A DNA stretch of 32,000 nucleotides, taken from contig JAFGBS010000027.1 of assembly GCA_016933055.1 (NCBI GenBank), forward strand, positions 60,001 to 92,000. The letters run 5' to 3'. The DNA is from Promethearchaeota archaeon (GTDB lineage Archaea; Asgardarchaeota; Lokiarchaeia; Sigyniarchaeales; Promethearchaeaceae). The notes under the pieces were generated by a model. The model was not told where the DNA came from. It saw only the letters and a list, made by a program, of their open reading frames with translations, and did no database searches. Positions 21 through 27,511 of this stretch are shown here, one piece after another. How positions within the stretch are numbered: the stretch's first letter is position 1; each line of letters begins with the position of its first letter. The translations under genes were made by a program, and so were the position numbers.

Positions 21-1046
21 TTAAATTTGTTTTTCTTGAGCACCTTTTCTAAAATTCATCGACAACAAAATACTTCCATAAGTCACTAATCCAATCCCTA
101 CTGCTATGCCTAAAATCATAATCGAAGGGATTAAGATTCCCATTACAAAAAGACCTATTCCAACACCAATTTGACCTAAACCTCCAATTAAAGAAATTAA
201 CTTGAATTTTCGTGAAATAGGGACATCAATATGGATAATTCTACCAGTAGATCCATCAATGAATGCTTGGTACTTCTTCTTATTATAAGTAAAATCAATT
301 TCATACACGGGAAATTGAATGTAAAATACATCTCGTTCTTCAACCCTGTCGTCCCGGTCTGTAATCGTGTGAACTTCCTTTCTCATCTCTGACATTTGCC
401 TGTTCATAACAGCTAAACGCATCGTTCTTTTTGCTTCCTCAGAAGAATAATTCGAATCAATGATCTCACCACCCAATTCCTTTACATGTGTAATATCAAA
501 ATATTCCTTACCCGTGGTAGGAACCACATAATTCTTAAGATAGTTAGGGGTAGATTTCAACCCTAAGAGTGGAATTTGATACTCGCGCAAAACATTACCT
601 GACTCCTCTCGTTGATAATAAGATACTGCCTCAAACCACCCCGGTCTATCAAAAGCGGGTCGATGGAAATTAGGCCAGTTATCTATTCCTCTATAATCGC
701 TGGAAGCATTATATTCTCCTACCCAAATCGGATAAAATTTCAGAACTCGTTTTGTAATTGTTGCCGTGTTTTCAAAATCCTGAGGTGCCCCTGGTATTTT
801 CTTAACCCAATCTTCCATTATTGATTGTGCTTCACTTGCCGTATAATTCGATCGAACAATGTAATGATCATTAAATATAAAGTTCTTCTTCGTTTCTTCG
901 GGTAGTTCTTCTCCAGTAATGCTAGTACCATCTGGTCCTACCATCAGGGAAACTTGAATTGCTGTACCACAGAATTCACAGGTGTGAATCGGTGTAATTG
1001 GGACGTCTAAATTCGCAGCACAATTCGGACACACTATTTCTACCAT
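21..1046 (-). CDS. Zinc-ribbon, C-terminally membrane-anchored protein of SPFH-associated operons
   Basis: N-terminal CPNC-x13-CEFCG ribbon; FYPIW and FPVY..DGSTG motifs shared with the upstream paralogue; two C-terminal hydrophobic helices; AAGGAG SD; 4 nt gap to the upstream gene. Confidence 0.75.
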   Translation of the reverse strand: MVEIVCPNCAANLDVPITPIHTCEFCGTAIQVSLMVGPDGTSITGEELPEETKKNFIFNDHYIVRSNYTASEAQSIMEDWVKKIPGAPQDFENTATITKRVLKFYPIWVGEYNASSDYRGIDNWPNFHRPAFDRPGWFEAVSYYQREESGNVLREYQIPLLGLKSTPNYLKNYVVPTTGKEYFDITHVKELGGEIIDSNYSSEEAKRTMRLAVMNRQMSEMRKEVHTITDRDDRVEERDVFYIQFPVYEIDFTYNKKKYQAFIDGSTGRIIHIDVPISRKFKLISLIGGLGQIGVGIGLFVMGILIPSIMILGIAVGIGLVTYGSILLSMNFRKGAQEKQI

Positions 1047-1050
1047 TTTA

Positions 1051-2124
1051 TTATACTCCTTGCATCCTTATCATTAACCGTTTAGCCTTCCGATTCTCTT
1101 TCGTACTTGATTTTTCTAATTGCATTTTGAAAGCTAAACGAATCGGGATAGCTGTTAAACCTACCCCGACGATTGCAACAATCATCATAATTATTCCCCA
1201 TACTTCAGTCTCTTCAACAGCTGCGAATGCAAAACCAAAATTCCCTAAAACTGCCCCTGCTAAAAGGACAGCTAATGCAATTGCATAATTAATAATCCTT
1301 TTTTTGCGGGAAATTGGAATTTCTCCTTTCACCACCGTCCCCGAGTCTCCAGCGATTGAAACCTTATAATATTTATCGTTGAAGCTGTAACGGCAGATCC
1401 ATAAAGGAGCATGAACATATAATGGATCTTTAACGGTGATTTTGGAGTCGCATCGGACCAATCGGTTCAAACCCGAACTAGCTTGTGCCCGATTCTGATT
1501 TTCAACAGCACCATAGGTATTCATTTTAGCTTCATGCTCTTCTACCTCAGCATTAATGAACTCGCAGTTATCTTTCTTCACAAGATCAAAATCAAAATCA
1601 ATAAGATTATCCAATGATAAAGAATGCACAAATTCATAGAAACCATAAAACGCTGCATGCTTTCTGGCTATAACACTATTGCGCCCAGATCGATTGAACT
1701 CACTTTCAATTGGGCGCCAGACGGGGACTTGATACGCTTCTTGATAGGTTTCGGTCCTTGTATTCCCATTAGAATCTCTGACTGTTCTTGTGCGGGTTCG
1801 ATATCGAGTGACACTTCCTTGTTGTACGCCATAGAAATTCGTGTAAGAATCAAAAGGTACCATCCAAAAAGGTAAATACACAGCTTTCGTTTCTTCAATT
1901 CTGACCAATTTCATATCTACTTTGTGTTTACGTAAAAATTCTTCCACATTTGACCGTACTTCTAAATGAGTTTTGGTAGGAATCATCTTATGGCCGCTTA
2001 CTTTCTTGAAATCAACATTGAAAGCCTCACCACACCATTCACATTGTTGCACAACATCTTCTGGATTCAACTTAATAACAGCACCGCAATTAGGACATTC
2101 TTTTGTTAATTTTCGTTCGGTCAG
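1051..2124 (-). CDS. Zinc-ribbon, membrane-anchored paralogue; probable true start is CTG at 2124 (357 aa), not TTG at 2070
   Basis: The frame is open upstream of 2070 and reads (L/M)TERKLTKECPNCGAVIKLNPEDVVQQCEWCG, completing the CxxC..CxxC ribbon. GGTGA SD lies 6 nt before the CTG; in-frame TGA three codons further up. YLPFW motif, RT-rich hairpin segment, two C-terminal TM helices. Confidence 0.7.
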   Translation of the reverse strand: MTERKLTKECPNCGAVIKLNPEDVVQQCEWCGEAFNVDFKKVSGHKMIPTKTHLEVRSNVEEFLRKHKVDMKLVRIEETKAVYLPFWMVPFDSYTNFYGVQQGSVTRYRTRTRTVRDSNGNTRTETYQEAYQVPVWRPIESEFNRSGRNSVIARKHAAFYGFYEFVHSLSLDNLIDFDFDLVKKDNCEFINAEVEEHEAKMNTYGAVENQNRAQASSGLNRLVRCDSKITVKDPLYVHAPLWICRYSFNDKYYKVSIAGDSGTVVKGEIPISRKKRIINYAIALAVLLAGAVLGNFGFAFAAVEETEVWGIIMMIVAIVGVGLTAIPIRLAFKMQLEKSSTKENRKAKRLMIRMQGV

Positions 2125-2177
2125 AATACATCACCAAATAAGATTAAAATAAAAAAATTAGAGAATTATGTTTGTAT

Positions 2178-3305
2178 TTATACTTTCGTGCCACATTTCT
2201 CACAGAAACGTTGTCCGGGTTCTAATGGATCGCCGCATTTATAACATTTGAGGGGACCAACAGGATGACCACACATTTCACAGAATTTTTGACCTGGGTC
2301 TAATGGATCGCCACATTTTTTACAGACATCAACTGATGCAGCAGCCCCACATTTTTCACAGAATTTTTGACCTGGATCTAGCGGATCGCCACAATTTTTG
2401 CATGTTCCTCCCTCTCCCGTCGGTTTAGGCACAGGTGGTGCTACTGGTTCTTTCCCGCAGTTAGAGCAAAATTTTACTCCAGCTTTGTTCTGGGTTCCAC
2501 AATGTACGCATGTCATGTAATCTCCTCCTGCGGTAGCAATCCCTTCAGTCTTTAATCCACCCGTCATCACAAAAGCAGTCCCGGCTCCACCGGTTGACTT
2601 TCCAATCTCTTTTGCGACATCTTTTTGGGTTTCGGATGCGAGTACCGTCCCAGCTCCAACCCCTCCAGTTTGCATATAGAAAAGTCTGTCTCGGTATTTC
2701 TCTTCTGTATCAATTTTAACAAACTTCACATCGTCTAATTCTAAACCGATTTTCTCAAAGGCGTTTTTTAATTCCTCGGTTACCTCTGCAGACGTTTTTT
2801 TAAGTTCTCCATAGACTTGGCGAAGTGTATGACCCGAGAGCAGAGTCATCACATTTTCATTGAAGTAACCCCGAATGTAATTATTCACTGCTTCTGTTGT
2901 GAAAATATTATTATTGCCACAAATCTCGGTCACAAACAATCTTGGGTCGATAACCTTGAACCAGTACTGCCCGTGGTACATTAATGGGGCTAATTCCTGT
3001 GTTTGGGTTCTACCACCAAATTTTCCATCAAATTTACTTTTGCTAACAAAAATAACTTCCGCTTGAAAGATATCACCTACAAAGAGTTTAATTACTCTGC
3101 CTAAAAGGGGAAGATCCATTGTTTTAAACATCTTTCTTCCAGGTGGCAACAAATCAAGTGCTTTTCCATCTTTGTAGAAAATTGCCCACTGATTCTCAGC
3201 GACAATCGCAAAACTACCCCAACGAAGCCTATCATCAGGATATCTATAGACAATATCGCCAGGTTTGGCGTTGTCCCATTCTACTACTTGAGCTCCTAAT
3301 ACCAT
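2178..3305 (-). CDS. SPFH (band 7-like, YdjI-type) domain protein with four C-terminal zinc ribbons (double zinc ribbon repeats)
   Basis: IVAENQWAIFYKDGK..LPPGR N-terminus and FQAEVIFVS/GQYWFKVIDP motifs typical of soluble SPFH proteins; four CxxCG-x8-FCxxCG units; AGGTGA SD; no TM helix. Confidence 0.85.
   Translation of the reverse strand: MVLGAQVVEWDNAKPGDIVYRYPDDRLRWGSFAIVAENQWAIFYKDGKALDLLPPGRKMFKTMDLPLLGRVIKLFVGDIFQAEVIFVSKSKFDGKFGGRTQTQELAPLMYHGQYWFKVIDPRLFVTEICGNNNIFTTEAVNNYIRGYFNENVMTLLSGHTLRQVYGELKKTSAEVTEELKNAFEKIGLELDDVKFVKIDTEEKYRDRLFYMQTGGVGAGTVLASETQKDVAKEIGKSTGGAGTAFVMTGGLKTEGIATAGGDYMTCVHCGTQNKAGVKFCSNCGKEPVAPPVPKPTGEGGTCKNCGDPLDPGQKFCEKCGAAASVDVCKKCGDPLDPGQKFCEMCGHPVGPLKCYKCGDPLEPGQRFCEKCGTKV
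2191..2402 (-). repeat. Three coding near-direct repeats, each encoding CxxCGDPL(D/E)PGQ(K/R)FCExCG
   Basis: Recurring DNA blocks (ggatcgcc, cacagaatttttgacctgg) with about 75-78 nt period, inside the SPFH ORF. Confidence 0.85.
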
Positions 3306-3454: not shown

Positions 3455-4969
3455 TTATTTTTTAACCTTTTTTTTCACAAGCAAATAGATCGAGAAAGAA
3501 AGCGTGGGAGTTAATATAATTATCAAGATCCAAGAAACCTCATAATAAATTACTTTCATACTCCAGAACGGTTTCGTTAGAGGACCCATCAAGTGAAGGT
3601 TGTTCGTTTTTATTAAATCCACTCCTAAGCACCATAATTGGCTAAATCTTGATACTGAATCTACAGTCCATACCATTACTTCAATTCCGGCCAGATCATA
3701 ACTTTTAAATTGTTCATTGGTTAATCCGTGATGGGTATTAACCAGTTCGCTACCCATGCTAATTAATTGATCTACGGGGAATGCATTAGTGACATAGGTC
3801 ATGTTAAGGGAAAGTGCCTGAGATGAACCAATTAAGATGTTTTTACCCAGACCGGAATTATTCAACTGAGTTAAGAGTATGTTTTCATAGGAAGAATAAT
3901 AAGGATGCCCCGAGGGAGGTCCTTTGGAATCGATATCTAATAATAAATAATTATCCCGAGTAAAATTGATAATTTCTGCGAGTGTTGGGATTTTTTCGCC
4001 CCGGTAAGATTCCGCAGTGGTTTTTGAGATATATCCCTCTGAAATAGTGTTGAATGGATCGCAATCCACAAACCAAGAACCCGCATCTAATTGTTGTAAT
4101 TCTGAATAATTAAAACTGGTGATTGGCTCGTTGAATCTATCAGGAAATACGGTTCCAACATCAGTTGTTCTTCGTAAAGTCGAATCGTGCATCAAAACAA
4201 TTATGCCGTCGTAACTAATCGTCAAATCAACTTCTATTCCAACTGCACCAAAAATTACTGCTTGTTCGGCTGCTGCCATTGTATTTTCTGGTGCTAAATG
4301 TGATGCCCCGCGATGTGCCATAAGTAAGGGTTTAGGAGGAATTTCACCTTGAACTACCGTAGAGGGAACTAAAAAAAATGGGGAAATAAACGGAAAAATA
4401 CAAATTACCGCAATTACAATGGTTCCGAATACAAAACCCGCTTTCTTCCACGATTTAGTACCCTCATTTTTCACTCTTAACAATTGTCTAGCAAATTTTC
4501 TGTATAATAGGGGGGATATAGAACTAATTCCGATAATCAATATTAACCAAATAATGGGACTTAGATATTCTAATTGTGTTCTAACGATAAATATTTCCGA
4601 TCCTGCTTCTGAAATTAATAGATTTAGCGCAAAATCCCAAACCGCTAAAAAGATGAAAGGCAATATCTTATTAATAATAGAGGTTTTTGTATGACCACTT
4701 TTTGCCAGTTTAATGGTATGAAAAATCACAAGGAATAGACTATGAGCAAAATTAAGAAATATCAATGTTAATATGATTGCTAACCAATTAAATCGAACAC
4801 CAATCATTCCAATAAGGAATTCGTTAATATCATACCAAAGCGGGTTCATTAGTAATACAATCGTAGTAACAACTAGCATATTAAGAAAATAAAGGATGAA
4901 AAATCCATACCAGATTTTTCCCCAAACGATGCCTTTGTTTTTCATTTGATTTTTCACCATCATTCTCAC
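3455..4969 (-). CDS. Membrane glycerophosphodiester phosphodiesterase with 5 N-terminal TM + GDPD domain + 1 C-terminal TM (GDE2/3/6-like)
   Basis: AHRG, APENT, EVD and MHD catalytic motifs; six hydrophobic helices arranged 5+1; sequons NYS, NNS, NMT in the catalytic domain. Confidence 0.9.
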   Translation of the reverse strand: MRMMVKNQMKNKGIVWGKIWYGFFILYFLNMLVVTTIVLLMNPLWYDINEFLIGMIGVRFNWLAIILTLIFLNFAHSLFLVIFHTIKLAKSGHTKTSIINKILPFIFLAVWDFALNLLISEAGSEIFIVRTQLEYLSPIIWLILIIGISSISPLLYRKFARQLLRVKNEGTKSWKKAGFVFGTIVIAVICIFPFISPFFLVPSTVVQGEIPPKPLLMAHRGASHLAPENTMAAAEQAVIFGAVGIEVDLTISYDGIIVLMHDSTLRRTTDVGTVFPDRFNEPITSFNYSELQQLDAGSWFVDCDPFNTISEGYISKTTAESYRGEKIPTLAEIINFTRDNYLLLDIDSKGPPSGHPYYSSYENILLTQLNNSGLGKNILIGSSQALSLNMTYVTNAFPVDQLISMGSELVNTHHGLTNEQFKSYDLAGIEVMVWTVDSVSRFSQLWCLGVDLIKTNNLHLMGPLTKPFWSMKVIYYEVSWILIIILTPTLSFSIYLLVKKKVKK

Positions 4970-4984
4970 GGATTTTATTTCTTT

Positions 4985-6640
4985 TTAATCATTGATATCA
5001 GTTTTTCCCTCGCGGAGTAATCGGTGTAGCACCTTTCCAACAGCAGATTTCGGCATTTCTTGAATAAATTGTATACTACGGGGGTATTTATATGCTGCAA
5101 CGCGATCTTTCATCCAATCAATAATCTGTTGCTCTGTGACCTTTCCCTTGTATTCATCTTTAAGTACCACGTAGGCTTTAAGATTTTCTCCAACCTCTGG
5201 GTCAGGAATACCGATCACAGCGCAATCTAATATGGCGGGATGCTCGTACATATAAGCTTCTATCTCAGCAGGATAAACTGAATGACCTTTATATTTAATG
5301 AGATTCTTAATCCGTGATTTTATACTTAGATAACCCTCTTCATCCACAACGCCTACATCTCCCGTATAAAGCCATCCATTTCTCAAACATGCTGCAGTTT
5401 CTTTTGTTTTCTTATAATATCCTTTCATCACTTGTGGTCCTTTTACACAAATTTCTCCTTCCTCGCCAATTCCAAGTAATCTTTCCCCCGTTTCAAGATC
5501 CACTATTTTACATTGAGTATTCGGGAAAGGGAATCCGACAGTGCCTGCTTTAGGTTTCCCAAATCGTGATAACGGGACTGCATGTGTGACGGGACTGGCC
5601 TCTGTTAGTCCGTATCCCTCTCTTAAGACAGCACCTGTTAATTTCTCGAATTTATCTTGTACTTCAGCTGGTAATGCTCCTGCACCACATAAGCAGAATT
5701 TAATAGATGACATGTCATGGTCTTCAATTCCGGGGTAATTATTCAAATTATTATACAGTGCGGACACCCCAGGAAATATCGTTATTTTGTTATGCACAAT
5801 AGTTTCTAATAATTCATCGGTGTCCCGAGGATTTGAAACCATTACTAGGTTTGCTCCAATTAAGATCCCAAAATTCATGCAGACAGTTTGAGCATAAATA
5901 TGATATAATGGGAGTGCTACTAATATTATTTCACCACCTTCAACTGCTTCCGGAAACCAAGCTCGGCATTGGTATGCATTCGCCACAAGGTTATAATGAG
6001 TTAACATAGCGCCCTTTGGTAAACCTGTAGTGCCACCTGTATATTGTAGATTTGCTGTATCAGTGGGATCCATATCTACTTTTGGGGGATTTGGCTCTGT
6101 GGTATGAATTAAATCTTCTAAATAGAGAAATTTGCCATCTGGAGACACCAAATCCTCTTTTTCAGGTTCGTTGGAGAACCACGGGGTTAAAGAACTTTGA
6201 ACAACAGTCTTAACATTTTCTGGTATGGCACCTTCTGCTATCTGGTCGAACGCGTCCCACATAATAAAAATTGTTGCTTCACTATCTCGTAATTGATACT
6301 CAATCTCCAGTTTCTTAAATAAGGGGCTTAATAGTGTAACTTTTCCACCAGCCCTGATAACCGCGTAATAACACACAATACACGGGGGCACATTAGTAAA
6401 ATGTAGTGCAACAGTTTCACCTTTTTTTAAACCTAAATTATGCAATGCTGCTGCTGCTCGATCGACCAATTCATCGAGTTTCCTATAAGTTAGCTGTACT
6501 CCAAAATAGCTGATAGCCACACTATCAGGGAATTTATGTGCTGCATTTCTCAACATCTGGTCAATTGGAATTTCAGGAATATCCATATTACGGGGGACAT
6601 CACCAGGCCATAATTTCATGAAAACTTCTTCAAAAGACAT
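4985..6640 (-). CDS. fadD: Long-chain fatty acid--CoA ligase (ANL superfamily)
   Basis: YTGGTTGLPKG P-loop, EGYGLTEA, LYTGD and C-terminal PKSAVGKV motifs; substrate specificity is not established. Confidence 0.85.
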   Translation of the reverse strand: MSFEEVFMKLWPGDVPRNMDIPEIPIDQMLRNAAHKFPDSVAISYFGVQLTYRKLDELVDRAAAALHNLGLKKGETVALHFTNVPPCIVCYYAVIRAGGKVTLLSPLFKKLEIEYQLRDSEATIFIMWDAFDQIAEGAIPENVKTVVQSSLTPWFSNEPEKEDLVSPDGKFLYLEDLIHTTEPNPPKVDMDPTDTANLQYTGGTTGLPKGAMLTHYNLVANAYQCRAWFPEAVEGGEIILVALPLYHIYAQTVCMNFGILIGANLVMVSNPRDTDELLETIVHNKITIFPGVSALYNNLNNYPGIEDHDMSSIKFCLCGAGALPAEVQDKFEKLTGAVLREGYGLTEASPVTHAVPLSRFGKPKAGTVGFPFPNTQCKIVDLETGERLLGIGEEGEICVKGPQVMKGYYKKTKETAACLRNGWLYTGDVGVVDEEGYLSIKSRIKNLIKYKGHSVYPAEIEAYMYEHPAILDCAVIGIPDPEVGENLKAYVVLKDEYKGKVTEQQIIDWMKDRVAAYKYPRSIQFIQEMPKSAVGKVLHRLLREGKTDIND

Positions 6641-6787
6641 AATTCTAATTTCAGTGTTCGAGCTTTATAATAATTTTCCCAAGTGGGTGGGATTGATTCC
6701 GCATTTCTCGAAACATAATTGAAAATCCTTTTTATGTGGGAAGAAAAACACTACACATATCTTTTTGAGAGGATTTGTGAACAAAAA

Positions 6788-8293
6788 ATGAGTGAACAAG
6801 AAGTATTTGATTTGATAGTTATTGGTTCGGGTCCAGGTGGATATCACGCTGCATTGCGAGCAGCACAATATGGAGCTAAAGTTGCGATTATAGAGAAAAG
6901 ATCTGGAGAGCTAGGTGGTACATGCAGCAATTGGGGTTGTATTCCAACTAAAGCACTAGTTGCTTCTGCAAATATGCTAGAAGAACTTCATGAGAAAGCG
7001 GAGGATTTTGGTATCACTGTCGGGAACGTAGAATTTAATTTTATGAAAGCGGTAGAGCGTAAAAATAAAGTCGTAACCGAATTACGAGAAGGAATTGAAG
7101 GGTTATTGAATATCCGCAAAATTCCGATCCATTACGGATTCGGAAAATTAGAAGGAGGAAGCATTGCGGAAGAATTTACCGTCAGCGTTGCACCCGAACA
7201 AGGAGAAAAGATCTTTTTGAAAGGGAAACGCGTTATTATAGCTACGGGCTCGACACCAGCACTTATACCGGCATTTAATATCGATCACAATAAGATTTTA
7301 ACCAGTGATGATATCTTAAATCCTGATTTTAAAATCTTACCTAAATCCCTTTTAATCATTGGTGCTGGTGTAATTGGGTGTGAATTTGGGAATATTTTCC
7401 GACGATTCGGGGTCGATGTAACTATGCTTGAATATTTACCAACCATGATTGCGACTGAGGAACGTCTTGTAATTAAGGAACTTCAGAAAAAGTTTGATGA
7501 GATAGGAATCAAACTACATGTGAAACAAAATGTATTAAAAGTGGAAAATACTGAAACTGGTGTAAAAGCAACTACATGTGATGCGTCAATTCCGCGTGAT
7601 CAAGTCGATTCCGCTGAGAAATTTACTTATGAAGCTGAATTATGCTTAGTCTCTATAGGAAGGGCTAAAGAATCAGTAGGAATTGGGTTGGAGGAATTAG
7701 GTGGTAAGATAGAACGAAATTCAATTGTTGTGAATGAAAAAACCCGTGAAACTGATGTTGTGGGAGTGTATGCAATTGGTGATGTCACAGCAGGCCCGAT
7801 GCTAGCTCATAAAGCAAGTTACGATGGGGATGTAGCGGTTGCAAATGCACTTTCCAGCATAGGGGGATTTGATGTTCATCCACGTGAAGCAGATTATAGT
7901 GTTCTGCCTGCAACCATATTTACAAATCCCGAAATTGGGTCAGTCGGAATTCGGGAAAAAGATGCTAAAGATATTGCAAAAGATAAAGGATCGAAAATTT
8001 ATACTGGTCGATTTTATTATGCCAGTTTAGGCAAGGCTAAATGTATGAATACTGAAGAAGGTTTTATGATGATCATAGCAGATGCAGATAGTGATAAAAT
8101 TCTTGGAGCTAGTTGTATTGGCCATGGAGCCCCAGAATTGATAGCTACTGTATCCATTGCGATGGATCATGGTATCACTGCAACTGAATTAGGGCATAGT
8201 ATCTATTCGCATCCCACAATTTCGGAAATGGTTTTGGAGACTGCAGAAGACGTTCATGGAATGGCGATACATAAAGCGGGTCGACGACGTTAA
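6788..8293 (+). CDS. lpdA: Dihydrolipoamide dehydrogenase (start revised from 6719 to ATG 6788)
   Basis: GSGPGG FAD-binding motif directly after MSEQEVFD; GGTCSNWGCIPTK redox disulfide; GAGVIG NAD motif; C-terminal HPTISE. Confidence 0.9.
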   Translation: MSEQEVFDLIVIGSGPGGYHAALRAAQYGAKVAIIEKRSGELGGTCSNWGCIPTKALVASANMLEELHEKAEDFGITVGNVEFNFMKAVERKNKVVTELREGIEGLLNIRKIPIHYGFGKLEGGSIAEEFTVSVAPEQGEKIFLKGKRVIIATGSTPALIPAFNIDHNKILTSDDILNPDFKILPKSLLIIGAGVIGCEFGNIFRRFGVDVTMLEYLPTMIATEERLVIKELQKKFDEIGIKLHVKQNVLKVENTETGVKATTCDASIPRDQVDSAEKFTYEAELCLVSIGRAKESVGIGLEELGGKIERNSIVVNEKTRETDVVGVYAIGDVTAGPMLAHKASYDGDVAVANALSSIGGFDVHPREADYSVLPATIFTNPEIGSVGIREKDAKDIAKDKGSKIYTGRFYYASLGKAKCMNTEEGFMMIIADADSDKILGASCIGHGAPELIATVSIAMDHGITATELGHSIYSHPTISEMVLETAEDVHGMAIHKAGRRR

Positions 8294-9906: not shown

Positions 9907-11682
9907 ATGATCCGAACGAATATAGATGAAAGGAACCCTTGGTTTAATGCAAAATATTGGCCCCCTCACATGCCCAAACAACTCGAATTTGATGAAACCA
10001 AAACGTTATATGATGCATTTGTTGAATCTGCGGAGAAATATAGTGATGAAGATGCATTCTGGTTTTTAGATTCTTGGATGACGTATGGAGAAATGCATCA
10101 AGCGATTGATAATTTCGCAGCTGGGTTGAATGCATTAGGAATGAATAAAGGGGATGTATTTGGAATTTTATTACCTAATTGTTATCAATTCATTATTGCT
10201 TATTATGCATGCTTGAAAATCGGCGTAATAACGACCCCAATGAACCCGACATATAAACCTGGAGAAATTTTACATCAACTTAAAATGACAAAAGTCAAAG
10301 CACTGATCATCTTAGATTCTTTAAATGAAGGATTACTGCAGCCCGTTCGTGAAAAATATCCTTTGAAGTTCGTTATATCTACAGGAATCTTGGATTTCGC
10401 AAAATTTTCTCCAATCAAAAAAATTCTAGCCAAACTACTAAAAAAAGTACCCACTGGAAAGGTTCCAAATTCGATTAAGATCCATCAAGTATTAAACCTT
10501 GGAAAAAAAAGCCCCGTGGAAAAAGCTCAATTAGATCCTTTAAACGACGTTGCAACCTACTTAATGACGGGAGGAACCACTGGAATTCCCAAAGCCGCAG
10601 TTCTCACTCATTCTAATATTTATACTAACGCGAAACAATGTTCGTGGTGGGTTTTATTTCAAAAAGAAGAAGATGGAGAGTTTCTCAAAATCACTCCGAA
10701 AACAGGAATGGTAGGTGTGTTACCATTTTTCCACTCCTTCGGAATGACGGTCGTAATGAATGCTGCTATCATTAGTGGGGGATCAATAATTATGTTCCCT
10801 CGACCTCCTCCCACTGAGGAACTATTGGGAACTCTTCATGATATACCATTAGATTCTTTCATGTATCCTGGTGCTGAGGTCCTTTTCCAGAGAATCGCCG
10901 ATTTACCCCAAGAAATTATAGATAAATATGATCTAAGGGGTAAACTTACAATGTGCCTAAGCGGTGCAGGCCCATTACATGAATATGTCAGACAACCTTT
11001 TGAAGCTAAAACGGGCGGAAAAATTGTAGAGGGATACGGTCTAACGGAGACAAGCCCTGTCCTTAGTGCGGGGAACTTTTATGGGGAATATCGATGCGTG
11101 GAAACCATTGGATTGCCATTTCCAGGGGTGGATTGGAAAATCTTTCCTTCTGAAGACTTCAATACTGGACCTATTGAAGGATTCGGAGAAGAATATACAG
11201 GTGAAATTTGCGCTTCGGGTCCTCAAATCATGAAAGAATACTTGGATAGACCTGAAGAAACTGCTGACACCATTAAAGAATGGAAGGGCAAATACTGGTT
11301 ACGTACCGGGGACATTGGATTTATGGATGAGTTTGGTCGCATGGTTATTCGGGATCGTAAAAAACAGCTGATTAAAATGCGTGGATATTCTATTTATCCG
11401 AAAGAGGTGGAGACACTGGTTGGAAATCATCCTGACGTGCTGGAGGTGGCAGTAGCGGGTCTACCCGATAAAGAAACTGGAGAACTGGTAAAGGCTTGGG
11501 TAAAGGTAAAAGTGGGTAGCAATCTAACACCAGACGCATTACGGGATTGGTGTAAGGAAAATATGACCCATTACAAGGTTCCTAAGTTAATTGAATTTAG
11601 AGATGAAATTCCAAAGAACATAATTGGGAAAGTACAGAGAAGATTACTTCAAGAACAAGATCCTCTTTATCAAAATGAATAA
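9907..11682 (+). CDS. fadD: Long-chain fatty acid--CoA ligase (second paralogue)
   Basis: MTGGTTGIPKA, EGYGLTET, LRTGDIG and PKNIIGKV motifs. Confidence 0.85.
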   Translation: MIRTNIDERNPWFNAKYWPPHMPKQLEFDETKTLYDAFVESAEKYSDEDAFWFLDSWMTYGEMHQAIDNFAAGLNALGMNKGDVFGILLPNCYQFIIAYYACLKIGVITTPMNPTYKPGEILHQLKMTKVKALIILDSLNEGLLQPVREKYPLKFVISTGILDFAKFSPIKKILAKLLKKVPTGKVPNSIKIHQVLNLGKKSPVEKAQLDPLNDVATYLMTGGTTGIPKAAVLTHSNIYTNAKQCSWWVLFQKEEDGEFLKITPKTGMVGVLPFFHSFGMTVVMNAAIISGGSIIMFPRPPPTEELLGTLHDIPLDSFMYPGAEVLFQRIADLPQEIIDKYDLRGKLTMCLSGAGPLHEYVRQPFEAKTGGKIVEGYGLTETSPVLSAGNFYGEYRCVETIGLPFPGVDWKIFPSEDFNTGPIEGFGEEYTGEICASGPQIMKEYLDRPEETADTIKEWKGKYWLRTGDIGFMDEFGRMVIRDRKKQLIKMRGYSIYPKEVETLVGNHPDVLEVAVAGLPDKETGELVKAWVKVKVGSNLTPDALRDWCKENMTHYKVPKLIEFRDEIPKNIIGKVQRRLLQEQDPLYQNE

Positions 11683-13058: not shown

Positions 13059-13213
13059 TCTAGTAATACAAATTCAAATAGCATTAAAACCAAAGGAAAT
13101 CGAAAAAATCAAACTCATAGGATCAGGAAGGAATTGCTAATGCTACCATTTATAACTTCTTCAAAGAATCTTTACATTGAATTGATACAAGAAAATTGGG
13201 TGGCAGAATAATT

Positions 13214-14683
13214 ATGGTTATAAAATCTGGTCTTGAATATCGACAAAGTCTCAAACAGAGAAAACGAATGAATATTTATTTCATGGGGGAGAAAATCAAC
13301 GACCCTCTATCTCATCCGATTATGAAAGCGGCAGTAAACTCAATAGCATTAACTTATGATTTAGCGTGTGATCCTGAATATAAACATGTGATGACAACTA
13401 AATCGGCAATAACTGGTGAAAAAATCAATAGATTTTGTCATATCCATCAAAGTACAGAGGATTTGATCAAAAAAGTAGAAATGCTAAGAATTTTAGGTCA
13501 AAAAACGGGCACTTGCTTCCAAAGATGTGTTGGCATGGATGCTATGAATGCAGTTTATATAACCACCTTTGAAATCGATGAAAAATATGGCACAGATTAT
13601 CATAAAAGATTCCAAAAATACGTCATACAAGCAGAAGAAAATGACTGGACCATCGATGGCTGTATGACAGATCCAAAAGGAGATAGAAGCAAGAGACCAT
13701 CAGAACAAAAAGATCTGGATCTCTACGTCCATGTAGTAAAACGAATTGATGATGGGGTAGTAATTCGGGGAGCTAAAGCTCATCAAACAGGAGCAATTAA
13801 TAGTCATGAGCATTTAATAATGCCAACCTTAACAATGAGGAAAGAAGACAAAGATTATACAATTTGTTGTGCGGTTCCTGCAGATGATCCAAAAATTATT
13901 TATATCTATGGAAGACAAGCGAGCGATCTACGACGATTAGATGACAGTGAATCTGGAGATATTGATTGTGGGAACCCCGAATTTGGAGGTCAAGAAGCAC
14001 TTGTGATATTTGATGATGTGTTTGTTCCCAGAGAACGTATTTTTATGAATGGAGAAACAGATTTCTGTGGACGGTTAGTGGAAACCTTCGCGGCATATCA
14101 CCGTCAATCGTATGGTGGATGTAAGGTTGGTGTTGGAGATATATTAATTGGTGCTGCAGCAACAATCTCAGAATACAACGGAACCAAAAATGCCTCTCAT
14201 ATCCGAGATAAAATTACCGAAATGGTGCATCTCAATGAAACACTATATTCTTGTGGGATTGCATGTTCATCATGTGGACAGAAAACCTCATCGGGGAACT
14301 ATCTAGTAGATATTCTGCTTGCAAATGTATGCAAGCAGAATGTTACTAGATTTCCATTTGATATAGCTCGGTTACTCCACGACATAGCGGGTGGTATTTT
14401 TGTTACGATGCCGAGTGCAAAAGATTTATCGAATCCCGAAACAGCGAAATGGGTAAAAAAATATCTCTCTGGAGTAGAAGGGATTGAAACTAAAGACCGA
14501 ATGAAAATGATGCGATTGATTGAAAACCTAGTTTTAGGTAGAGCTGCAGTGGGGTACTTAACAGAATCAATGCATGGCGCTGGATCCCCCCAAGCTCAAA
14601 AAATCATGATCCAACGACTGGTAGATATTGAGCTAAAAAAACGATATGCTAAAACCCTGGCTCATATAAAGGATGAATCTTAA
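13214..14683 (+). CDS. abfD: 4-hydroxybutyryl-CoA dehydratase / vinylacetyl-CoA isomerase (start revised to ATG 13214)
   Basis: CFQRCVGMD and HRQSYGGC provide the 3 Cys + 1 His [4Fe-4S] ligands; MTDPKGDRS, GAKAHQTG and HGAGSP motifs. Confidence 0.9.
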   Translation: MVIKSGLEYRQSLKQRKRMNIYFMGEKINDPLSHPIMKAAVNSIALTYDLACDPEYKHVMTTKSAITGEKINRFCHIHQSTEDLIKKVEMLRILGQKTGTCFQRCVGMDAMNAVYITTFEIDEKYGTDYHKRFQKYVIQAEENDWTIDGCMTDPKGDRSKRPSEQKDLDLYVHVVKRIDDGVVIRGAKAHQTGAINSHEHLIMPTLTMRKEDKDYTICCAVPADDPKIIYIYGRQASDLRRLDDSESGDIDCGNPEFGGQEALVIFDDVFVPRERIFMNGETDFCGRLVETFAAYHRQSYGGCKVGVGDILIGAAATISEYNGTKNASHIRDKITEMVHLNETLYSCGIACSSCGQKTSSGNYLVDILLANVCKQNVTRFPFDIARLLHDIAGGIFVTMPSAKDLSNPETAKWVKKYLSGVEGIETKDRMKMMRLIENLVLGRAAVGYLTESMHGAGSPQAQKIMIQRLVDIELKKRYAKTLAHIKDES

Positions 14684-15260: not shown

Positions 15261-16715
15261 ATGAAAAGTGAAAATAAAAGAAAGAAAGAAAAGACTTTAA
15301 CTACCCATGCAGGTCGACCGATTGCGGATAATCAGAATTCATTAACTGCTGGTCCACGAGGTCCACTATTAGCTCAAGACTTCCAACTTTTTGAAAAACT
15401 AGCTCATTTTAATAGAGAACGAATCCCAGAACGCATTGTGCATGCAAAAGGTGCTGGTGGATTTGGGACATTCACTGTTACTAATGATATCACGAAATAT
15501 ACTAAAGCTAAAGTCTTTTCAGAAATAGGTAAAAAAACTAGCATCGTTGCAAGATTTTCTACGGTAGCGGGAGAAAAAGGATCTGCCGATACAGTTAGAG
15601 ATGTTCGCGGATTTGCAGTGAAATTTTATACTGAAGACGGAAATTGGGATATGGTAGGAAATAATACACCTGTATTTTTTGTTCGAGATCCCTTTAAATT
15701 TATGGATTTCATCCATTCACAAAAACGGGAACCAGATACAAATTTACGGTCTGATACAATGCAATGGGACTTTTGGTCTCTTAGTCCTGAAACATTACAT
15801 CAAGTAACCATTCTCTTTTCCGATCGGGGTATTCCATATGGATTTACCCATATGAATGGATATAGCAGTCATACCTACAGTTTTATAAACGATAAGGATG
15901 AACGCTTTTGGGTGAAATTTCATTTCAAAACTATGCAGGGAATAAAAAATTTCAAGCAAGCGGAAGCAGATGAAATTGCTGGGACAAATCCTGACTGGGC
16001 AACTCAAGATTTATTTAATCGAATTGAAGAAGCAGAATTTCCAAAATGGAAAGTTCACGTGCAAATAATGCCGGAAATGGAGGCTGAAGAATATGAATGG
16101 AATCCTTTTGACTTAACCAAAGTTTGGCCCCATAAAGACTACCCATTAATCGAAGTAGGGATTATGGAATTGAATAAGAATCCATCCAATTATTTTGCAG
16201 ATATTGAGCAAGCAGCTTTTGCACCTGCGAACGTGGTTCCTGGAATAAGTTTCTCTCCAGATAAAATGCTTCAAGCTCGGATTTTTGCTTATACTGATGC
16301 CCATCGATATCGTTTAGGTGTAAATTATGAGATCTTACCCGTGAATCGACCAAAAGTAGAAGTACACAGTTATAATCGAGACGGTTTCATGCGACATGAT
16401 GGCAATTACGGAAATACAGTTAATTATGAACCAAACAGTTTCGGAGGACCAAAGGAAAATCCCGAATTTAAAGAACCTCCATTAAAGATTTCTGGTGATG
16501 CAGATAGATATGGACAACCAATTGTGGATGCAGACTTCATTCAACCGGGAAATTTATATCGGTTGATGCCTTCAGAGGAGCAAAAAAGATTAATAGAAAA
16601 CATTGTTAGGAGCTTAAAGAAAGCACCAATCGAAATTCAGAAGCGTATGATTACTCTTTTCAGCAAAGCAGACATAAATTACGGACAAGGTGTAGCTAAA
16701 GGATTAGGATTGTAA
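15261..16715 (+). CDS. katA: Monofunctional small-subunit heme catalase
   Basis: [15 protein letters not shown] (distal His), VGNNTPVFF and [14 protein letters not shown] (proximal Tyr). Confidence 0.95.
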
Positions 16716-22136: not shown

Positions 22137-22145
22137 GGAGGATTG

Positions 22146-23606
22146 ATGCAAATGACGAAAGAATGTATAACAAAAAAAATAGAAAAGCTCACAGCTGAAT
22201 TAGGTGAAGTGGTATCTCCTTTACATGTGACTACTGATCCCTATGAAATTGAAGCGGCCACTGGGGATTTATCAATTCTACCTAAGTATCATTATAAATT
22301 TAAAGAAGAACATATTGCCACGCATGTTGTTCGACCGAAAGATACAGAAGAACTTGCTAAAGTTATGAAGATCTGTAAGAACTATGATCAAAATGTGACA
22401 GTAAGGGCAGCTGGAACTTCGTGTTATTCCTCCAGTACCCCAACAAAAGGTGGGGTAGTAATCGATGTCCGTCGTATGAATAAAATCCATGAAATTGATG
22501 AGGAGAAGAAGATCGTTAAATGCGGTGCAGGAATTTCTTGGATTCGGCTCATTAGCTCGCTTCGGGCTAAAGGTTTAGCTCCTAAATGCTATCCTACCAG
22601 CTATAAATCCTCGTGTTTATCTGGATTCGTTCTCACCAGCGGTAAAGCGGGAATTGGGACCGTAAAATACGGACCTATGTTCGATGCATTAATCGCAATC
22701 AAACTGGTTAAACCGGATGGTTCTATAGTTAGAATTACAAAAACCAGAGGTGGAGAAATCACTTTAAACGATGTAGTGGGATCTTTTGGAATATTAGGTG
22801 CAGTTGCAGAAGTAGAAATGAAAGTTACTACCCTAAAACCTTCAATGGAATTTGCTGGATATGGATTTAACACGATGCCAGAAGCAATGGAATTCTACAA
22901 TGCTGCTAAAAATAATCCCGTAGATAAGCCATTTTTCCTTTCACTTAGTGATCACAAATTCGAAGAACTGTCTCATGTAACAATTCCTGCTCGGGATTTC
23001 TTTGTCTATGTCGTGTTCTATGATGAGCTTGAAAAAACCGGAAAAGCCATCGCAAATTTGACAGAAAAAGCAAAGAACTCAAACGGATTAGCAATTGATC
23101 ACTGGTATTTGGAGGAAAAATGGCGGGATATTGCAGAAACAGAACTGAATCTCGGTCGTCTGTGTAATAATCCAATTTTCCAAGAATATTGGATTGCTGA
23201 TGAACGAATTCCCCAATTTTATGAAACATATGCACCCATAGTAAAGGATGATAAATATCGAAATGCTTTTTATATGATTGCAGGAGCGAATGGAAAAAGC
23301 CGAATCAAGTTATTTGGGTTGTCTGATATTGAGAATTCCTTGGAATTCTTCGGAATTAAAGCGAACTTCAATTTGATGGCTCAAAAATCCTATAAAATGG
23401 GTGATGGGATTTACACCGTGGGTGTTGTAAACACATTCTACCAACTTCTATTCAATATGGAGCGCGTAAAATACATGCGAAAATTGAAAAATTCGGTGGA
23501 TCCAGATGACCGCATTAACTCGTATCGTATCACAAAAACAAAAATGCGCTTGTGGCGTGTAAAACTACTTTTCTTTATAGGAAAATTGCTATATAGGTGG
23601 GCATAA
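22146..23606 (+). CDS. FAD-binding oxidoreductase (FAD_binding_4, GlcD/D-lactate dehydrogenase-like)
   Basis: VVRP...EEL..V, RAAGTS, GGVVIDVRRMNKI, GAGI, YPTS and KYG..D....KLV.PDG motifs; C-terminal DPDDRIN; GAGGAGG SD (start 22146 or 22152). Confidence 0.85.
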   Translation: MQMTKECITKKIEKLTAELGEVVSPLHVTTDPYEIEAATGDLSILPKYHYKFKEEHIATHVVRPKDTEELAKVMKICKNYDQNVTVRAAGTSCYSSSTPTKGGVVIDVRRMNKIHEIDEEKKIVKCGAGISWIRLISSLRAKGLAPKCYPTSYKSSCLSGFVLTSGKAGIGTVKYGPMFDALIAIKLVKPDGSIVRITKTRGGEITLNDVVGSFGILGAVAEVEMKVTTLKPSMEFAGYGFNTMPEAMEFYNAAKNNPVDKPFFLSLSDHKFEELSHVTIPARDFFVYVVFYDELEKTGKAIANLTEKAKNSNGLAIDHWYLEEKWRDIAETELNLGRLCNNPIFQEYWIADERIPQFYETYAPIVKDDKYRNAFYMIAGANGKSRIKLFGLSDIENSLEFFGIKANFNLMAQKSYKMGDGIYTVGVVNTFYQLLFNMERVKYMRKLKNSVDPDDRINSYRITKTKMRLWRVKLLFFIGKLLYRWA

Positions 23607-23622
23607 TGACGGGGATGATAAA

Positions 23623-24987: not shown

Positions 24988-25002
24988 AAATAGGAAAATG
25001 CA

Positions 25003-25884
25003 ATGAGTTTCAAAAAACTGCTAATTGACTACCACGAGTTGATCAAGTCAAAACAAACTCTCTTACTACTGGCAACATGCATCTTTGCATATTTAATGAC
25101 GGTTGTTCCAATGGAAGGGCGTTTTGATTGGTTGGAATTAATTCTATTGTCTTTTTCCACATTCATAGCGATCTCAGGAGCAACTATATTGAATATGTAT
25201 ATCGATCGGGATATTGATGCGAAAATGGAACGAACTAAAAACCGCCCATTACCAAGTGGAGAGATGAATCCCAATTTCGCTCTAATTAATGGTATCATTT
25301 TCACGGTGTTGGGATTAGCTTTAACGATATTTCTATGGAATTGGATAACATGCATGGTGATCTTCGTGGGATTTTTTGTTGATTTCGTCATATATAGTAT
25401 TTGGTTGAAACGAAAAACAAAATATAGTATTCTTTTTGGGGGGATTGCAGGAGGATTACCCGCCGTTGCAGGAAGAGTTCAAGCTATCGGTAATATCGAC
25501 TTGATTGCAATTCTTTTAATGTTTTTCATAGTAACTTGGATCCCTGTGCATATATTAACTCTTTCGTTAATACCGCAAAATCTGGAGGGATATAAAAATG
25601 CGGGTGTTCCTATGTGGCCAGTTGTAAGTTCTGAACAACAGACGATGAGGGTTATAGCTGGAAGTGCACTTGTAAATGCGGTTATTATGGGGGTAACTGC
25701 AATTTTGATGCAAATTCATTGGATTGTTGGAATAATTATTGGAGCTTGTTGTGCTATTATGATTATTCTAGTATTGATGAATTTAATCAAACCTACTCAA
25801 AAACTCACATTTACGATATTTAAATTTGCTTCAGCATTTATGTTATTAGGATTTGTATTGTTATATATTGGAGCGGTAGTATAA
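25003..25884 (+). CDS. ctaB: Protoheme IX farnesyltransferase (heme O synthase)
   Basis: NMYIDRDIDAKMERTKNRPLPSG, WLKRKT...I..GG.AG..P and W.P.H motifs are diagnostic of CyoE/CtaB within the UbiA family. Confidence 0.9.
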   Translation: MSFKKLLIDYHELIKSKQTLLLLATCIFAYLMTVVPMEGRFDWLELILLSFSTFIAISGATILNMYIDRDIDAKMERTKNRPLPSGEMNPNFALINGIIFTVLGLALTIFLWNWITCMVIFVGFFVDFVIYSIWLKRKTKYSILFGGIAGGLPAVAGRVQAIGNIDLIAILLMFFIVTWIPVHILTLSLIPQNLEGYKNAGVPMWPVVSSEQQTMRVIAGSALVNAVIMGVTAILMQIHWIVGIIIGACCAIMIILVLMNLIKPTQKLTFTIFKFASAFMLLGFVLLYIGAVV

Positions 25885-25918
25885 GAACAAAAAGGAAAAG
25901 AAAATGGAGGAATAAACA

Positions 25919-27483: not shown

Positions 27484-27511
27484 ATAAATAAAACGATGAG
27501 AACTTGAGGAA

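What the first reader, a model, noticed from the sequence alone, without database searches (positions are those of the whole stretch)
3455..4969. Archaeal glycerophosphodiesterase resembling animal six-TM GDE2/GDE3/GDE6: candidate eukaryotic signature protein
The protein has 5 N-terminal TM helices, a sequon-bearing GDPD domain and 1 C-terminal TM, the layout of GDPD5/GDPD2/GDPD4. It also carries segments I recall from GDE2 rather than from bacterial GlpQ/UgpQ: PKP.L..HRGA..LAPE, LMHD.TLRRTT.V...FP, AG.WF...DPF.T.S, PP..HPY.SS, FS.LWC.GV and P.W.M....Y...W. Mammalian GDE2/GDE3 release GPI-anchored proteins from the cell surface (established). An Asgard member would push this ectoenzyme family back before eukaryotes and hints at shedding of lipid-anchored surface proteins or ecto-lipid processing (inference).
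Basis: partly seen in the sequence, partly recalled or inferred. Interest (0 to 1): 0.8.

Follow-up and report, generated by a model that had tools for sequence, protein, structure and literature searches.

The report
Asgard six-helix membrane glycerophosphodiesterase, GDE2-like
This Lokiarchaeia-type (Asgard) gene encodes a membrane enzyme with the same six-helix layout and fold as animal GDE2/GDE3/GDE6, but bacteria carry it too, so it is not a clean archaea-to-eukaryote signature protein and its substrate is unknown.

Summary
Window 3455-4969 (-) is one ORF of 504 aa, more likely 496 aa from the ATG at 4945. It has five N-terminal TM helices, an intact GDPD domain and one C-terminal TM helix, and it is predicted N-in/C-in with the catalytic domain outside.

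It is a full-length homologue of animal GDPD5/GDPD2/GDPD4:
- An exhaustive HMMER search hits animal proteins end to end (E 1e-48 to 1e-35).
- The AlphaFold model (pLDDT 96.5) superposes on human, mouse and chicken GDPD5/4/2 over 489-501 residues (TM-score 0.76-0.85). Soluble UgpQ/GlpQ reach only 0.39.
- It is not the Bacillota PF10110-type membrane GDPD.

The evolutionary reading is only partly supported:
- The family is patchy in Asgard (63 of 400 genomes).
- It also exists, with the same architecture, in a bacterial clade whose named members are Anaerolineae.
- Among eukaryotes I saw it only in animals and Archamoebae.
- A rooted ML tree puts eukaryotes with the bacteria and Asgard as sister. 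An Asgard+eukaryote clade is not rejected (AU p 0.16).

Nothing supports GPI-anchor shedding. The host genome shows no inositol-phosphate synthase or C13 transamidase, and gene context is not conserved.

Verdict: a new prokaryotic member of a known enzyme kind, of moderate interest.

The parts
3455..4969 (-). Longest ORF of the six-TM glycerophosphodiesterase (504 aa from GTG; stop included)
   Evidence: 100% match to a 496-aa database record
4943..4945 (-). More likely start codon (ATG, residue 9 of the long ORF), giving 496 aa
   Evidence: Record and Atlas entry start here; read directly
4954..4958 (-). GGTGA Shine-Dalgarno-like motif, 8 nt upstream of the ATG at 4945
   Evidence: Read directly from the sequence; inference
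4364..4918 (-). N-terminal five-helix transmembrane domain (residues about 18-202). The conserved WxDIN and LExxSP motifs lie in the predicted outer loops.
   Evidence: Hydropathy and charge; AF2 helices; alignment
3575..4336 (-). GDPD catalytic TIM-barrel ectodomain (residues about 212-465). H219, R220, E228, E246, D248, H261 and D262 are intact. Sequons at N287, N335, N370 and N389.
   Evidence: Pfam PF03009 E 8e-28; residue conservation; sequons
3479..3556 (-). C-terminal sixth TM helix (residues about 472-497), followed by a KKKVKK cytoplasmic tail

Best explanation
The gene encodes a six-transmembrane ecto-glycerophosphodiesterase of the GDE2/GDE3/GDE6 (GDPD5/2/4) architectural family.

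Shown by computation: a five-helix membrane domain and a sixth C-terminal helix hold a metal-dependent GDPD TIM barrel with a complete catalytic set. The barrel lies on the predicted outer face of the cytoplasmic membrane. The whole protein superposes on animal GDPD5/4/2.

Inferred: it is an active phosphodiesterase that cleaves a glycerophosphodiester bond at the membrane surface. The substrate is either a head group of a membrane-embedded or lyso-lipid presented by the TM domain, or extracellular glycerophosphodiesters from decaying biomass. I think the role in this archaeon is more likely lipid or head-group scavenging or envelope lipid turnover than GPI-anchor shedding. In Asgard the ectodomain is probably N-glycosylated.

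Evolution: it belongs to an Asgard-specific clade of a family that is patchily spread over Asgard archaea, some Anaerolineae-type bacteria, animals and Archamoebae. The data cannot say whether eukaryotes got it from Asgard ancestors or by horizontal transfer.
For: Identity and architecture:
- Pfam GDPD at E 8e-28 and no other family.
- Six TM segments with alternating positive-inside loops.
- The same TM spacing in animal proteins.
- A full-length alignment with shared motifs.

Homology:
- An exhaustive search of 1.84 billion cluster representatives gave 128 hits below 1e-30. Named ones include nemertean, priapulid, crinoid and snail GDPD5-like proteins and fish GDPD2. They are matched end to end at 26-30% identity.
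- JGI's own annotation of several Asgard homologues is 'glycerophosphoinositol inositolphosphodiesterase'.

Fold:
- The AF2 model has pLDDT 96.5 and pTM 0.92.
- The Foldseek top 8 in Swiss-Prot are GDPD5, GDPD4 and GDPD2 of human, mouse, chicken and macaque. They align over 489-501 residues at TM-score 0.76-0.85. The next hit, E. coli UgpQ, scores 0.39.
- No six-TM GDE is solved in the PDB.

Catalysis: H219, R220, E228, E246, D248, H261 and D262 are kept in 71 of 71 Asgard members. Human GDE2 H233A, which by my reading is the HRG histidine, is catalytically dead (PMC7033719).

Outside orientation: loop charge bias. Sequons are enriched about 1.9-fold in Asgard ectodomains and depleted in bacterial ones. 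N335 is kept in 53 of 71 Asgard members.

Family tree: the six-TM family is monophyletic against soluble GDPDs at 100/100. The window protein sits in a 37-row Asgard clade at 89/88.
Against: - No biochemical data exist for any prokaryotic member, so the substrate and the cleavage side (PLC-like or PLD-like) are unknown.
- Archaeal lipids are built on sn-glycerol-1-phosphate, while characterised GDPDs bind sn-glycerol-3-phosphate (own knowledge). Self-lipids may therefore be poor substrates.
- Gene neighbourhood is not conserved among Asgard loci. The upstream acyl-CoA synthetase is kept only in the same genus. Context therefore gives no functional support.
- Topology is predicted, not measured.
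- The TM domain gave only generic helical-bundle matches (Z up to 9.7). Its proposed role in presenting lipid is pure inference.
Confidence: 0.85

Rival explanations
1. Eukaryotic signature protein by descent. The six-TM GDE was present in the Asgard ancestor of eukaryotes and passed vertically to LECA. Animals and Archamoebae retained it, most eukaryotes lost it, and the bacterial clade acquired it secondarily.
For: - Full-length homology between the Asgard and animal proteins.
- Asgard members are diverse and deep-branching.
- Some positions are shared by Asgard and animals but not bacteria, such as C447 in the 'WC' motif, W469, Y76 and L80.
- The Asgard+eukaryote clade is not rejected (AU p 0.158).
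Against: - The ML tree groups eukaryotes with the bacteria at 95/87.
- Seven signature columns and a 12-column insert are shared by bacteria and animals, against five columns shared by Asgard and animals.
- The family is in only 63 of 400 Asgard genomes and is missing from many families.
- Eukaryotic members seen were only Metazoa and Archamoebae.
- The root position differed between the quick and the careful tree.
Confidence: 0.25
2. A horizontally mobile family. The six-TM GDE has moved between co-occurring anaerobes (Lokiarchaeia and other Asgard, Anaerolineae, Archamoebae) and into an animal ancestor. The Asgard copy then says little about eukaryogenesis.
For: - Patchy occurrence in every group: Asgard 63 of 400, and 4 of 151 genomes in the order of one bacterial carrier.
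- None found in 201 genomes of the class of an unrelated Anaerolineales MAG.
- Eukaryotic members only in Metazoa and Archamoebae.
- Relations among bacteria, animals, Pelomyxa and Mastigamoeba are an unresolved polytomy.
- Neighbouring genes differ from lineage to lineage.
Against: - Each of the three big groups is largely coherent in the tree, so transfers, if any, were few and old.
- No mobile-element genes were seen next to the gene in the loci examined.
Confidence: 0.5
3. GPI-type sheddase. As for mammalian GDE2/GDE3, the archaeal enzyme cleaves inositol-phospholipid anchors and releases lipid-anchored surface proteins.
For: - Same architecture and fold as the GPI-cleaving GDE2/GDE3 (PMC7033719 and PMC5576486, listed).
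- Inositol-1-phosphate synthase is found in 374 of 400 Asgard genomes, and archaetidylinositol is common in Archaea (PMC9385802).
- In Lokiarchaeum ossiferum the next gene encodes a secreted protein with a weak Peptidase_C13 match at E 8e-6.
Against: - The host genome (91% complete) and its genus-mate show no inositol-1-phosphate synthase with either Pfam model, and the host shows no C13 peptidase.
- No conserved partner genes.
- Protein GPI-anchoring has not been demonstrated in Asgard archaea (own knowledge).
Confidence: 0.1
4. An ordinary prokaryotic membrane-tethered GDPD, where the helices serve only as an anchor and the resemblance to GDE2/3/6 is convergent.
For: Membrane-bound GDPDs are common in bacteria, for example the PF10110 GPDPase_memb + GDPD proteins of Bacillota.
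Against: - No PF10110 match. Those proteins superpose only at TM-score about 0.51.
- HMMER aligns the TM region itself with the animal proteins, for example residues 19-487 with 47-513.
- Motifs are conserved in the outer loops and at TM6.
- The six-TM clade has 100/100 support.
Confidence: 0.03

Closest known systems
Animal GDE2 (GDPD5), GDE3 (GDPD2) and GDE6 (GDPD4), the six-transmembrane ecto-glycerophosphodiesterases
   Same: Five TM helices, a GDPD ectodomain and one TM helix, with both tails predicted inside. The catalytic residues are the same. Family-specific motifs are shared (DP[FY].T, HP.Y, FS..WC.G, P.W...W). Predicted structures superpose over about 490-500 residues at TM-score 0.76-0.85 and 21-26% identity (architecture from PMC7033719).
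   Different: It lacks the long cysteine-rich N-terminal and C-terminal tails that carry the animal trafficking signals. It sits in a separate Asgard clade, not inside the eukaryotic one. The host membrane is archaeal, and the substrate is unknown. The N335 sequon is Asgard-specific.
Bacterial six-TM GDE clade (metagenomic; named members Brevefilum sp. and Anaerolineales, Chloroflexota)
   Same: Same six-TM + GDPD architecture and catalytic set, at 28-34% identity to the window protein.
   Different: The bacterial proteins are longer (about 550-640 aa, with C-terminal extensions). They have L or V in place of the 'WC' cysteine and their ectodomains are depleted in sequons. They often sit next to a PfkB kinase and sugar or inositol-type catabolic genes. 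In the ML tree they group with eukaryotes.
Soluble or periplasmic GDPDs (E. coli UgpQ and GlpQ, B. subtilis GlpQ, T. tengcongensis GDPD 2pz0)
   Same: GDPD TIM barrel with the HRG, E.D and HD motifs. Foldseek E 1e-15, about 265 residues aligned.
   Different: They have no membrane domain and lack the family-specific inserts and the pre-TM6 motif. TM-score by query is only 0.39. The host genome has three such soluble GDPDs elsewhere.
PF10110 (GPDPase_memb) + GDPD membrane proteins of Bacillota
   Same: A polytopic membrane domain fused to a GDPD domain.
   Different: The membrane domain is a different family. The window protein has no PF10110 hit, and structural TM-score is only about 0.51, mostly from the GDPD domain.

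Membership tests
GDE2/GDE3/GDE6-type six-TM glycerophosphodiesterases | GDPD catalytic domain with intact HRG / E.D / HD residues | tested here: met
   PF03009 at E 8e-28. H219, R220, E228, E246, D248, H261 and D262 are present and kept in 71 of 71 Asgard members.
GDE2/GDE3/GDE6-type six-TM glycerophosphodiesterases | Five TM helices before and one TM helix after the GDPD domain | tested here: met
   Hydropathy, AF2 helices, and the same spacing as in named animal GDPD5/GDPD2.
GDE2/GDE3/GDE6-type six-TM glycerophosphodiesterases | Catalytic domain extracellular, N- and C-tails cytoplasmic | tested here: met
   By prediction only. Positive-inside loop charges in this protein and as a mean over 71 Asgard members. 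Sequon enrichment in Asgard ectodomains. Not measured experimentally.
GDE2/GDE3/GDE6-type six-TM glycerophosphodiesterases | Full-length sequence and fold similarity to GDPD5/2/4, above other GDPD classes | tested here: met
   End-to-end HMMER hits to animal GDPD5/GDPD2. Foldseek top 8 are GDPD5/4/2 at TM-score 0.76-0.85, against 0.39 for UgpQ. The clade has 100/100 support against soluble GDPDs.
GDE2/GDE3/GDE6-type six-TM glycerophosphodiesterases | Placement inside the eukaryotic GDE2/3/6 clade itself | tested here: not met
   It falls in a separate Asgard clade (89/88) that is sister to eukaryotes + bacteria. It is a member of the wider six-TM family, not of the metazoan subfamilies.
GDE2/GDE3/GDE6-type six-TM glycerophosphodiesterases | Activity on GPI anchors, glycerophosphoinositol or glycerophosphocholine | not testable with these tools
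   Needs enzyme assays.
Eukaryotic signature protein (Asgard-to-eukaryote inheritance) | Present in Asgard archaea and in eukaryotes | tested here: met
Eukaryotic signature protein (Asgard-to-eukaryote inheritance) | Absent or very rare in other prokaryotes | tested here: not met
   A bacterial six-TM clade gave at least 120 clusters (at 90% identity) below E 1e-130 to P0157. It lies on contigs with bacterial genes and in 4 of 151 genomes of one bacterial order.
Eukaryotic signature protein (Asgard-to-eukaryote inheritance) | Eukaryotic sequences branch with or within Asgard sequences | tested here: inconclusive
   The ML tree joins eukaryotes with bacteria at 95/87. The Asgard+eukaryote constraint costs 17.4 lnL units, p-AU 0.158.
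Eukaryotic signature protein (Asgard-to-eukaryote inheritance) | Broad eukaryotic distribution consistent with presence in LECA | tested here: inconclusive
   Only Metazoa and Archamoebae appeared among the named hits. Eukaryotic sampling by these tools is limited.
PF10110-type bacterial membrane GDPD | GPDPase_memb membrane domain | tested here: not met
   No PF10110 hit at E up to 0.1. Structural TM-score is about 0.51.

The most novel reading that the evidence does not exclude
The six-TM ecto-GDE was inherited by eukaryotes from their Asgard ancestor. In Asgard cells it already works on inositol- or glycerol-phospholipid-linked surface molecules, remodelling or shedding lipid-anchored envelope components. 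On this reading it would be a prokaryotic precursor of GPI-anchor shedding by GDE2/GDE3.
Probability: 0.08. Interest if true: 0.8.

Novelty: new member of a known kind. Interest (0 to 1): 0.5.

Why it matters
GDE2, GDE3 and GDE6 are studied only in vertebrates, in neuronal differentiation, ALS-linked degeneration and uPAR shedding. No structure of any six-TM GDE is in the PDB copy searched.

Compact, tail-less homologues of about 500 aa exist in Asgard archaea and in some bacteria. The cultured Promethearchaeum syntrophicum and Lokiarchaeum ossiferum both carry one. This has two consequences:
- It provides tractable proteins for structural and biochemical work on how the membrane domain presents lipid substrates to the GDPD barrel.
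- It shows that the architecture is not an animal invention.

For eukaryogenesis it is a cautionary case. The protein looks like a eukaryotic signature protein from the Asgard side, but the bacterial clade and the patchy distribution make horizontal transfer at least as likely as descent. I found no paper in the searchable library that links Asgard archaea with GDPD or GDE proteins.

Tried and rejected
- Gene context as a functional clue. tblastn of the window's neighbours against 19 Asgard loci found none conserved. Pfam on neighbours in five loci gave unrelated genes: SDRs, CYTH, LacZ, DinB, an amidohydrolase, a sulfatase and NosD. The acyl-CoA synthetase-GDE adjacency is kept only in the same genus.
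- Fold of the TM domain alone. The model has pLDDT 89.7. VIA-align against 48,161 PDB chains gave only generic helical-bundle matches, with Z at most 9.7 over residues 1-123. That is below the level that means anything for helical proteins, so no known membrane fold was identified.
- First locus scan. The search for related loci with the mixed Asgard+animal alignment failed because it had no conserved stretch. I repeated it with Asgard sequences only. That scan is pattern-biased and missed the bacterial six-TM clade.
- Protist relatives. A search with Mastigamoeba P0241 returned only its own paralogues, so it does not inform eukaryotic breadth.
- AFDB cluster search. It listed no organisms, so it gave no taxonomic breadth.
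- Class-level bacterial search. A search around an Anaerolineales MAG that carries only a soluble GDPD found no six-TM member in 201 genomes. A search around a true carrier found 4 of 151.
- Odd taxonomic labels. L002 ('Bathyarchaeia') and L013 ('Nanopelagicaceae bacterium') are not evidence for spread outside Asgard. Their flanking genes are 65% and 80% identical to those of Asgard loci L001 and L012. The L002 contig matches genome G091, which lies in the window's phylum.
Full report
THE OBSERVATION

Window 3455-4969 on the minus strand is a single ORF of 504 codons starting at a GTG. The matching database record and the ESM Atlas entry begin at residue 9 (496 aa). That ATG (4945-4943) is preceded at 8 nt by GGTGA (4958-4954). 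I take 3455-4945 as the more likely gene.

A Kyte-Doolittle scan finds six hydrophobic segments, at about 18-41, 60-83, 99-120, 136-156, 176-202 and 472-497. The loops alternate sharply in charge. K+R/D+E counts are 4/0, 1/2, 3/0, 1/3 and 7/1. The 269-residue domain has 15/29 and the KKKVKK tail has 5/0. By the positive-inside rule this gives an N-in, C-in protein with the domain outside. The same alternation is seen as a mean over 71 Asgard homologues.

Pfam finds only GDPD (PF03009, residues 219-457, E 8e-28). Three of them (HRG..PENT, HD..L.RTT, LDAGSWF) are general GDPD motifs also seen in soluble structures. The others are specific to the six-TM family.

Four N-x-S/T sequons lie in the ectodomain. 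Alone that is not beyond chance: the shuffle mean is 2.6, and 73 of 300 shuffles reach 4. Family-wide the picture is different. Asgard ectodomains carry 4.07 against 2.18 expected, and animal ones 4.68 against 2.32. Bacterial ones carry 0.75 against 1.74. N335 is kept in 53 of 71 Asgard members. This fits an exposed, N-glycosylated domain in Asgard.

WHAT IT IS

The word-indexed search returned 120 best hits. All those that carry a name are Asgard, apart from one 'Bathyarchaeia' label dealt with below. They include Promethearchaeum syntrophicum (45% identity) and Lokiarchaeum ossiferum (44%). JGI's annotation of several is 'glycerophosphoinositol inositolphosphodiesterase'.

The exhaustive HMMER search of 1.84 billion cluster representatives gave 128 hits below 1e-30. 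I looked up names for thirty of the listed hits. Among them are GDPD5-like proteins of a nemertean, a priapulid, a crinoid, a snail and two echinoderms, and fish GDPD2. All are matched from the first TM helix to the last at 26-30% identity. Their predicted TM helices are spaced as in the window protein. A 20-sequence alignment is collinear over the whole length.

An AlphaFold2 model built on 110 homologues has pLDDT 96.5 and pTM 0.92. In Swiss-Prot its eight best Foldseek matches are human, mouse, chicken and macaque GDPD5, GDPD4 and GDPD2. They align over 489-501 residues at TM-score 0.76-0.85. The ninth is E. coli UgpQ at 0.39, covering the domain only.

No six-TM GDE is solved. The best PDB matches are soluble GDPDs over about 265 residues. 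The common Bacillota membrane GDPDs use a different membrane domain (PF10110). The window protein does not hit that family, and those proteins superpose only at about 0.51.

The catalytic set (H219, R220, E228, E246, D248, H261, D262) is intact and invariant in the Asgard clade. Mutating the corresponding histidine kills human GDE2 (PMC7033719).

DISTRIBUTION

The host genome is 3.76 Mb and 91% complete. It belongs to the same family as the two closed genomes of 4.3 and 6.0 Mb that carry the P. syntrophicum-like and L. ossiferum-like copies. It has one six-TM copy plus three short soluble GDPDs.

Across 400 genomes of the phylum the family is present in 63, that is in 21 of 85 genera. It is concentrated in the window's class and in a few other families, and was not found in many others.

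In the GTDB species scan, full-length matches were confined to Asgard records and two oddly labelled contigs. Both of those share flanking genes with Asgard loci at 65-80% identity.

That scan was pattern-biased, and the exhaustive search revealed a further clade (P0149, P0157, P0162 and others). This clade has no member above 34% identity in any of the 400 Asgard genomes. Its contigs encode RuvB, QueA, Fpg, TetR and PTS components, so they are bacterial. At least 120 clusters (at 90% identity) score below 1e-130 to P0157. The few named ones are Brevefilum sp. and Anaerolineales, and the Atlas cluster is mostly Chloroflexota. The clade is patchy too. It is in 4 of 151 genomes of the order of one carrier. 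It is in none of 201 genomes of the class of another Anaerolineales MAG.

Eukaryotic members that I could name are animals and two Archamoebae. Pelomyxa schiedti has a protein annotated as GDPD2. Mastigamoeba balamuthi has at least four gene models, one with three tandem GDPD domains.

PHYLOGENY

I built a careful ML tree of the GDPD domain: 97 rows, 281 columns, LG+C20+F+G4 PMSF, with twelve soluble GDPDs as outgroup.

- The six-TM family is recovered at 100/100.
- It splits into an Asgard clade of 37 rows (89/88), which holds the window protein, and a second clade (95/77).
- The second clade holds one long unnamed sequence plus a 95/87 group of animals, Pelomyxa, Mastigamoeba and the bacteria. 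Relations inside that group are unresolved.

A quick LG+G4 tree had instead placed the outgroup inside Asgard diversity, so the root is not stable.

Forcing Asgard + eukaryotes into one clade costs 17.4 log-likelihood units and is not rejected (p-AU 0.158).

Signature columns are balanced: 7 shared by bacteria and animals, 5 by Asgard and animals (including the 'WC' cysteine and W469), and 5 by Asgard and bacteria. One 12-column insert is shared by bacteria and animals.

The family therefore predates animals and exists in prokaryotes. The data do not show that eukaryotes got it from Asgard ancestors. The non-animal carriers (Lokiarchaeia, Anaerolineae, Archamoebae) are, to my knowledge, all anaerobes of sediments and digesters. 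That makes horizontal spread plausible.

FUNCTION

What is shown is an intact metal-dependent phosphodiesterase domain held at the predicted outer membrane face by a conserved six-helix scaffold. The most conserved scaffold positions lie in the outer loops (WxDIN, LExxSP) and just before TM6.

What is inferred is that the scaffold positions the barrel over the outer leaflet. The enzyme would then cleave phosphodiester head groups of membrane or lyso-lipids, or extracellular glycerophosphodiesters.

Context gives little help. In this genome the gene follows an acyl-CoA synthetase by 15-39 bp and precedes an SPFH/zinc-ribbon module that has its own A/T-rich upstream region. The synthetase adjacency is kept only in the same genus. 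Other Asgard loci have unrelated neighbours. Bacterial members often precede a PfkB kinase and sit among sugar or inositol-type catabolic genes. That hints at a nutritional role there.

For GPI-type shedding I find no support:
- Inositol-1-phosphate synthase is in 374 of 400 Asgard genomes, but not in this genome or its genus-mate.
- No C13 peptidase was found in this genome.
- The single C13-like neighbour in L. ossiferum is a weak hit.

I therefore favour lipid or head-group turnover or scavenging (about 0.5) over anchor shedding (about 0.1). The rest is open.

NOVELTY AND VERDICT

Searches of the paper library for Asgard or Lokiarchaea together with GDPD, GDE2 or glycerophosphodiester terms found nothing relevant. 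Automated annotations already name the proteins GDPD-family, and in JGI GDPD2-like.

An earlier first-reader note of this scan had remarked on the same architecture in another genome, lodged between SDR genes. The P. syntrophicum locus has that context.

This is a new prokaryotic member of a known enzyme kind. It is useful as a model for an unsolved, medically studied family, and it is an ambiguous rather than clean candidate signature protein. Interest 0.5.

Noticed in passing
window 21-3305 (-): An SPFH/Band-7 protein with four zinc ribbons (2178-3305), followed by two ORFs of about 340 aa with no Pfam hit. Another first-reader note already flags this module. The module was not found downstream of the GDE in the same-genus genome.
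   Followed up: partly
window 4985-6640 (-) and 9907-11682 (+): Two AMP-binding acyl-CoA synthetase-type genes flank a pyridine-nucleotide-disulphide oxidoreductase at 6719-8293. The first ends 15 bp before the GDE ORF. Its C-terminal 151 residues are 83% identical in the genus-mate, while the GDE is only 65% identical.
   Followed up: partly
window 15261-16715 (+): A full-length monofunctional haem catalase (Pfam Catalase, E 1e-196) in a Lokiarchaeia-type genome. This is notable for a lineage regarded as strictly anaerobic.
   Followed up: no
window 13196-14683 (+) and 22143-28333 (+): An HpaB-family protein (4-hydroxyphenylacetate hydroxylase / 4-hydroxybutyryl-CoA dehydratase type). Further on there is a co-directional run of FAD_binding_4, a CCG/4Fe-4S protein, a UbiA prenyltransferase, two ORFs without Pfam hits and an amino-acid-kinase-family protein. 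This may be a lipid or quinone-related cluster.
   Followed up: no
own genome G000 and genus-mate G131: Inositol-1-phosphate synthase (PF01658) is found in 374 of 400 Asgard genomes. It is not found in the window's genome (91% complete) or in its genus-mate (76% complete).
   Followed up: partly
L018:7877-9535 (+), Lokiarchaeum ossiferum: The gene after the GDE homologue encodes a 552-aa protein with PPC and Big domains and a weak Peptidase_C13 match (legumain / GPI-transamidase family; E 8e-6, 26 bits).
   Followed up: no
L089, L090, L096 (bacterial six-TM GDE loci): The bacterial homologues are followed by a PfkB kinase (L089, L096) and/or a C_GCAxxG_C_C protein (L089, L090). They sit near PTS, GH42, AP_endonuc_2, Dak, RpiB and GFO_IDH_MocA genes. 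This looks like a sugar or inositol catabolic setting.
   Followed up: no
L002 and L013: Contigs deposited as 'Candidatus Bathyarchaeia' and 'Nanopelagicaceae bacterium' carry Asgard-type six-TM GDEs. Their flanking genes are 65% and 80% identical to those of Asgard loci. The labels are probably binning or naming errors.
   Followed up: yes
P0122 (Mastigamoeba balamuthi gene model, 886 aa): It has three tandem GDPD domains in one model. Three further paralogues exist, two of them close by on the same scaffold. This is either a tandemly expanded family or merged gene models.
   Followed up: no
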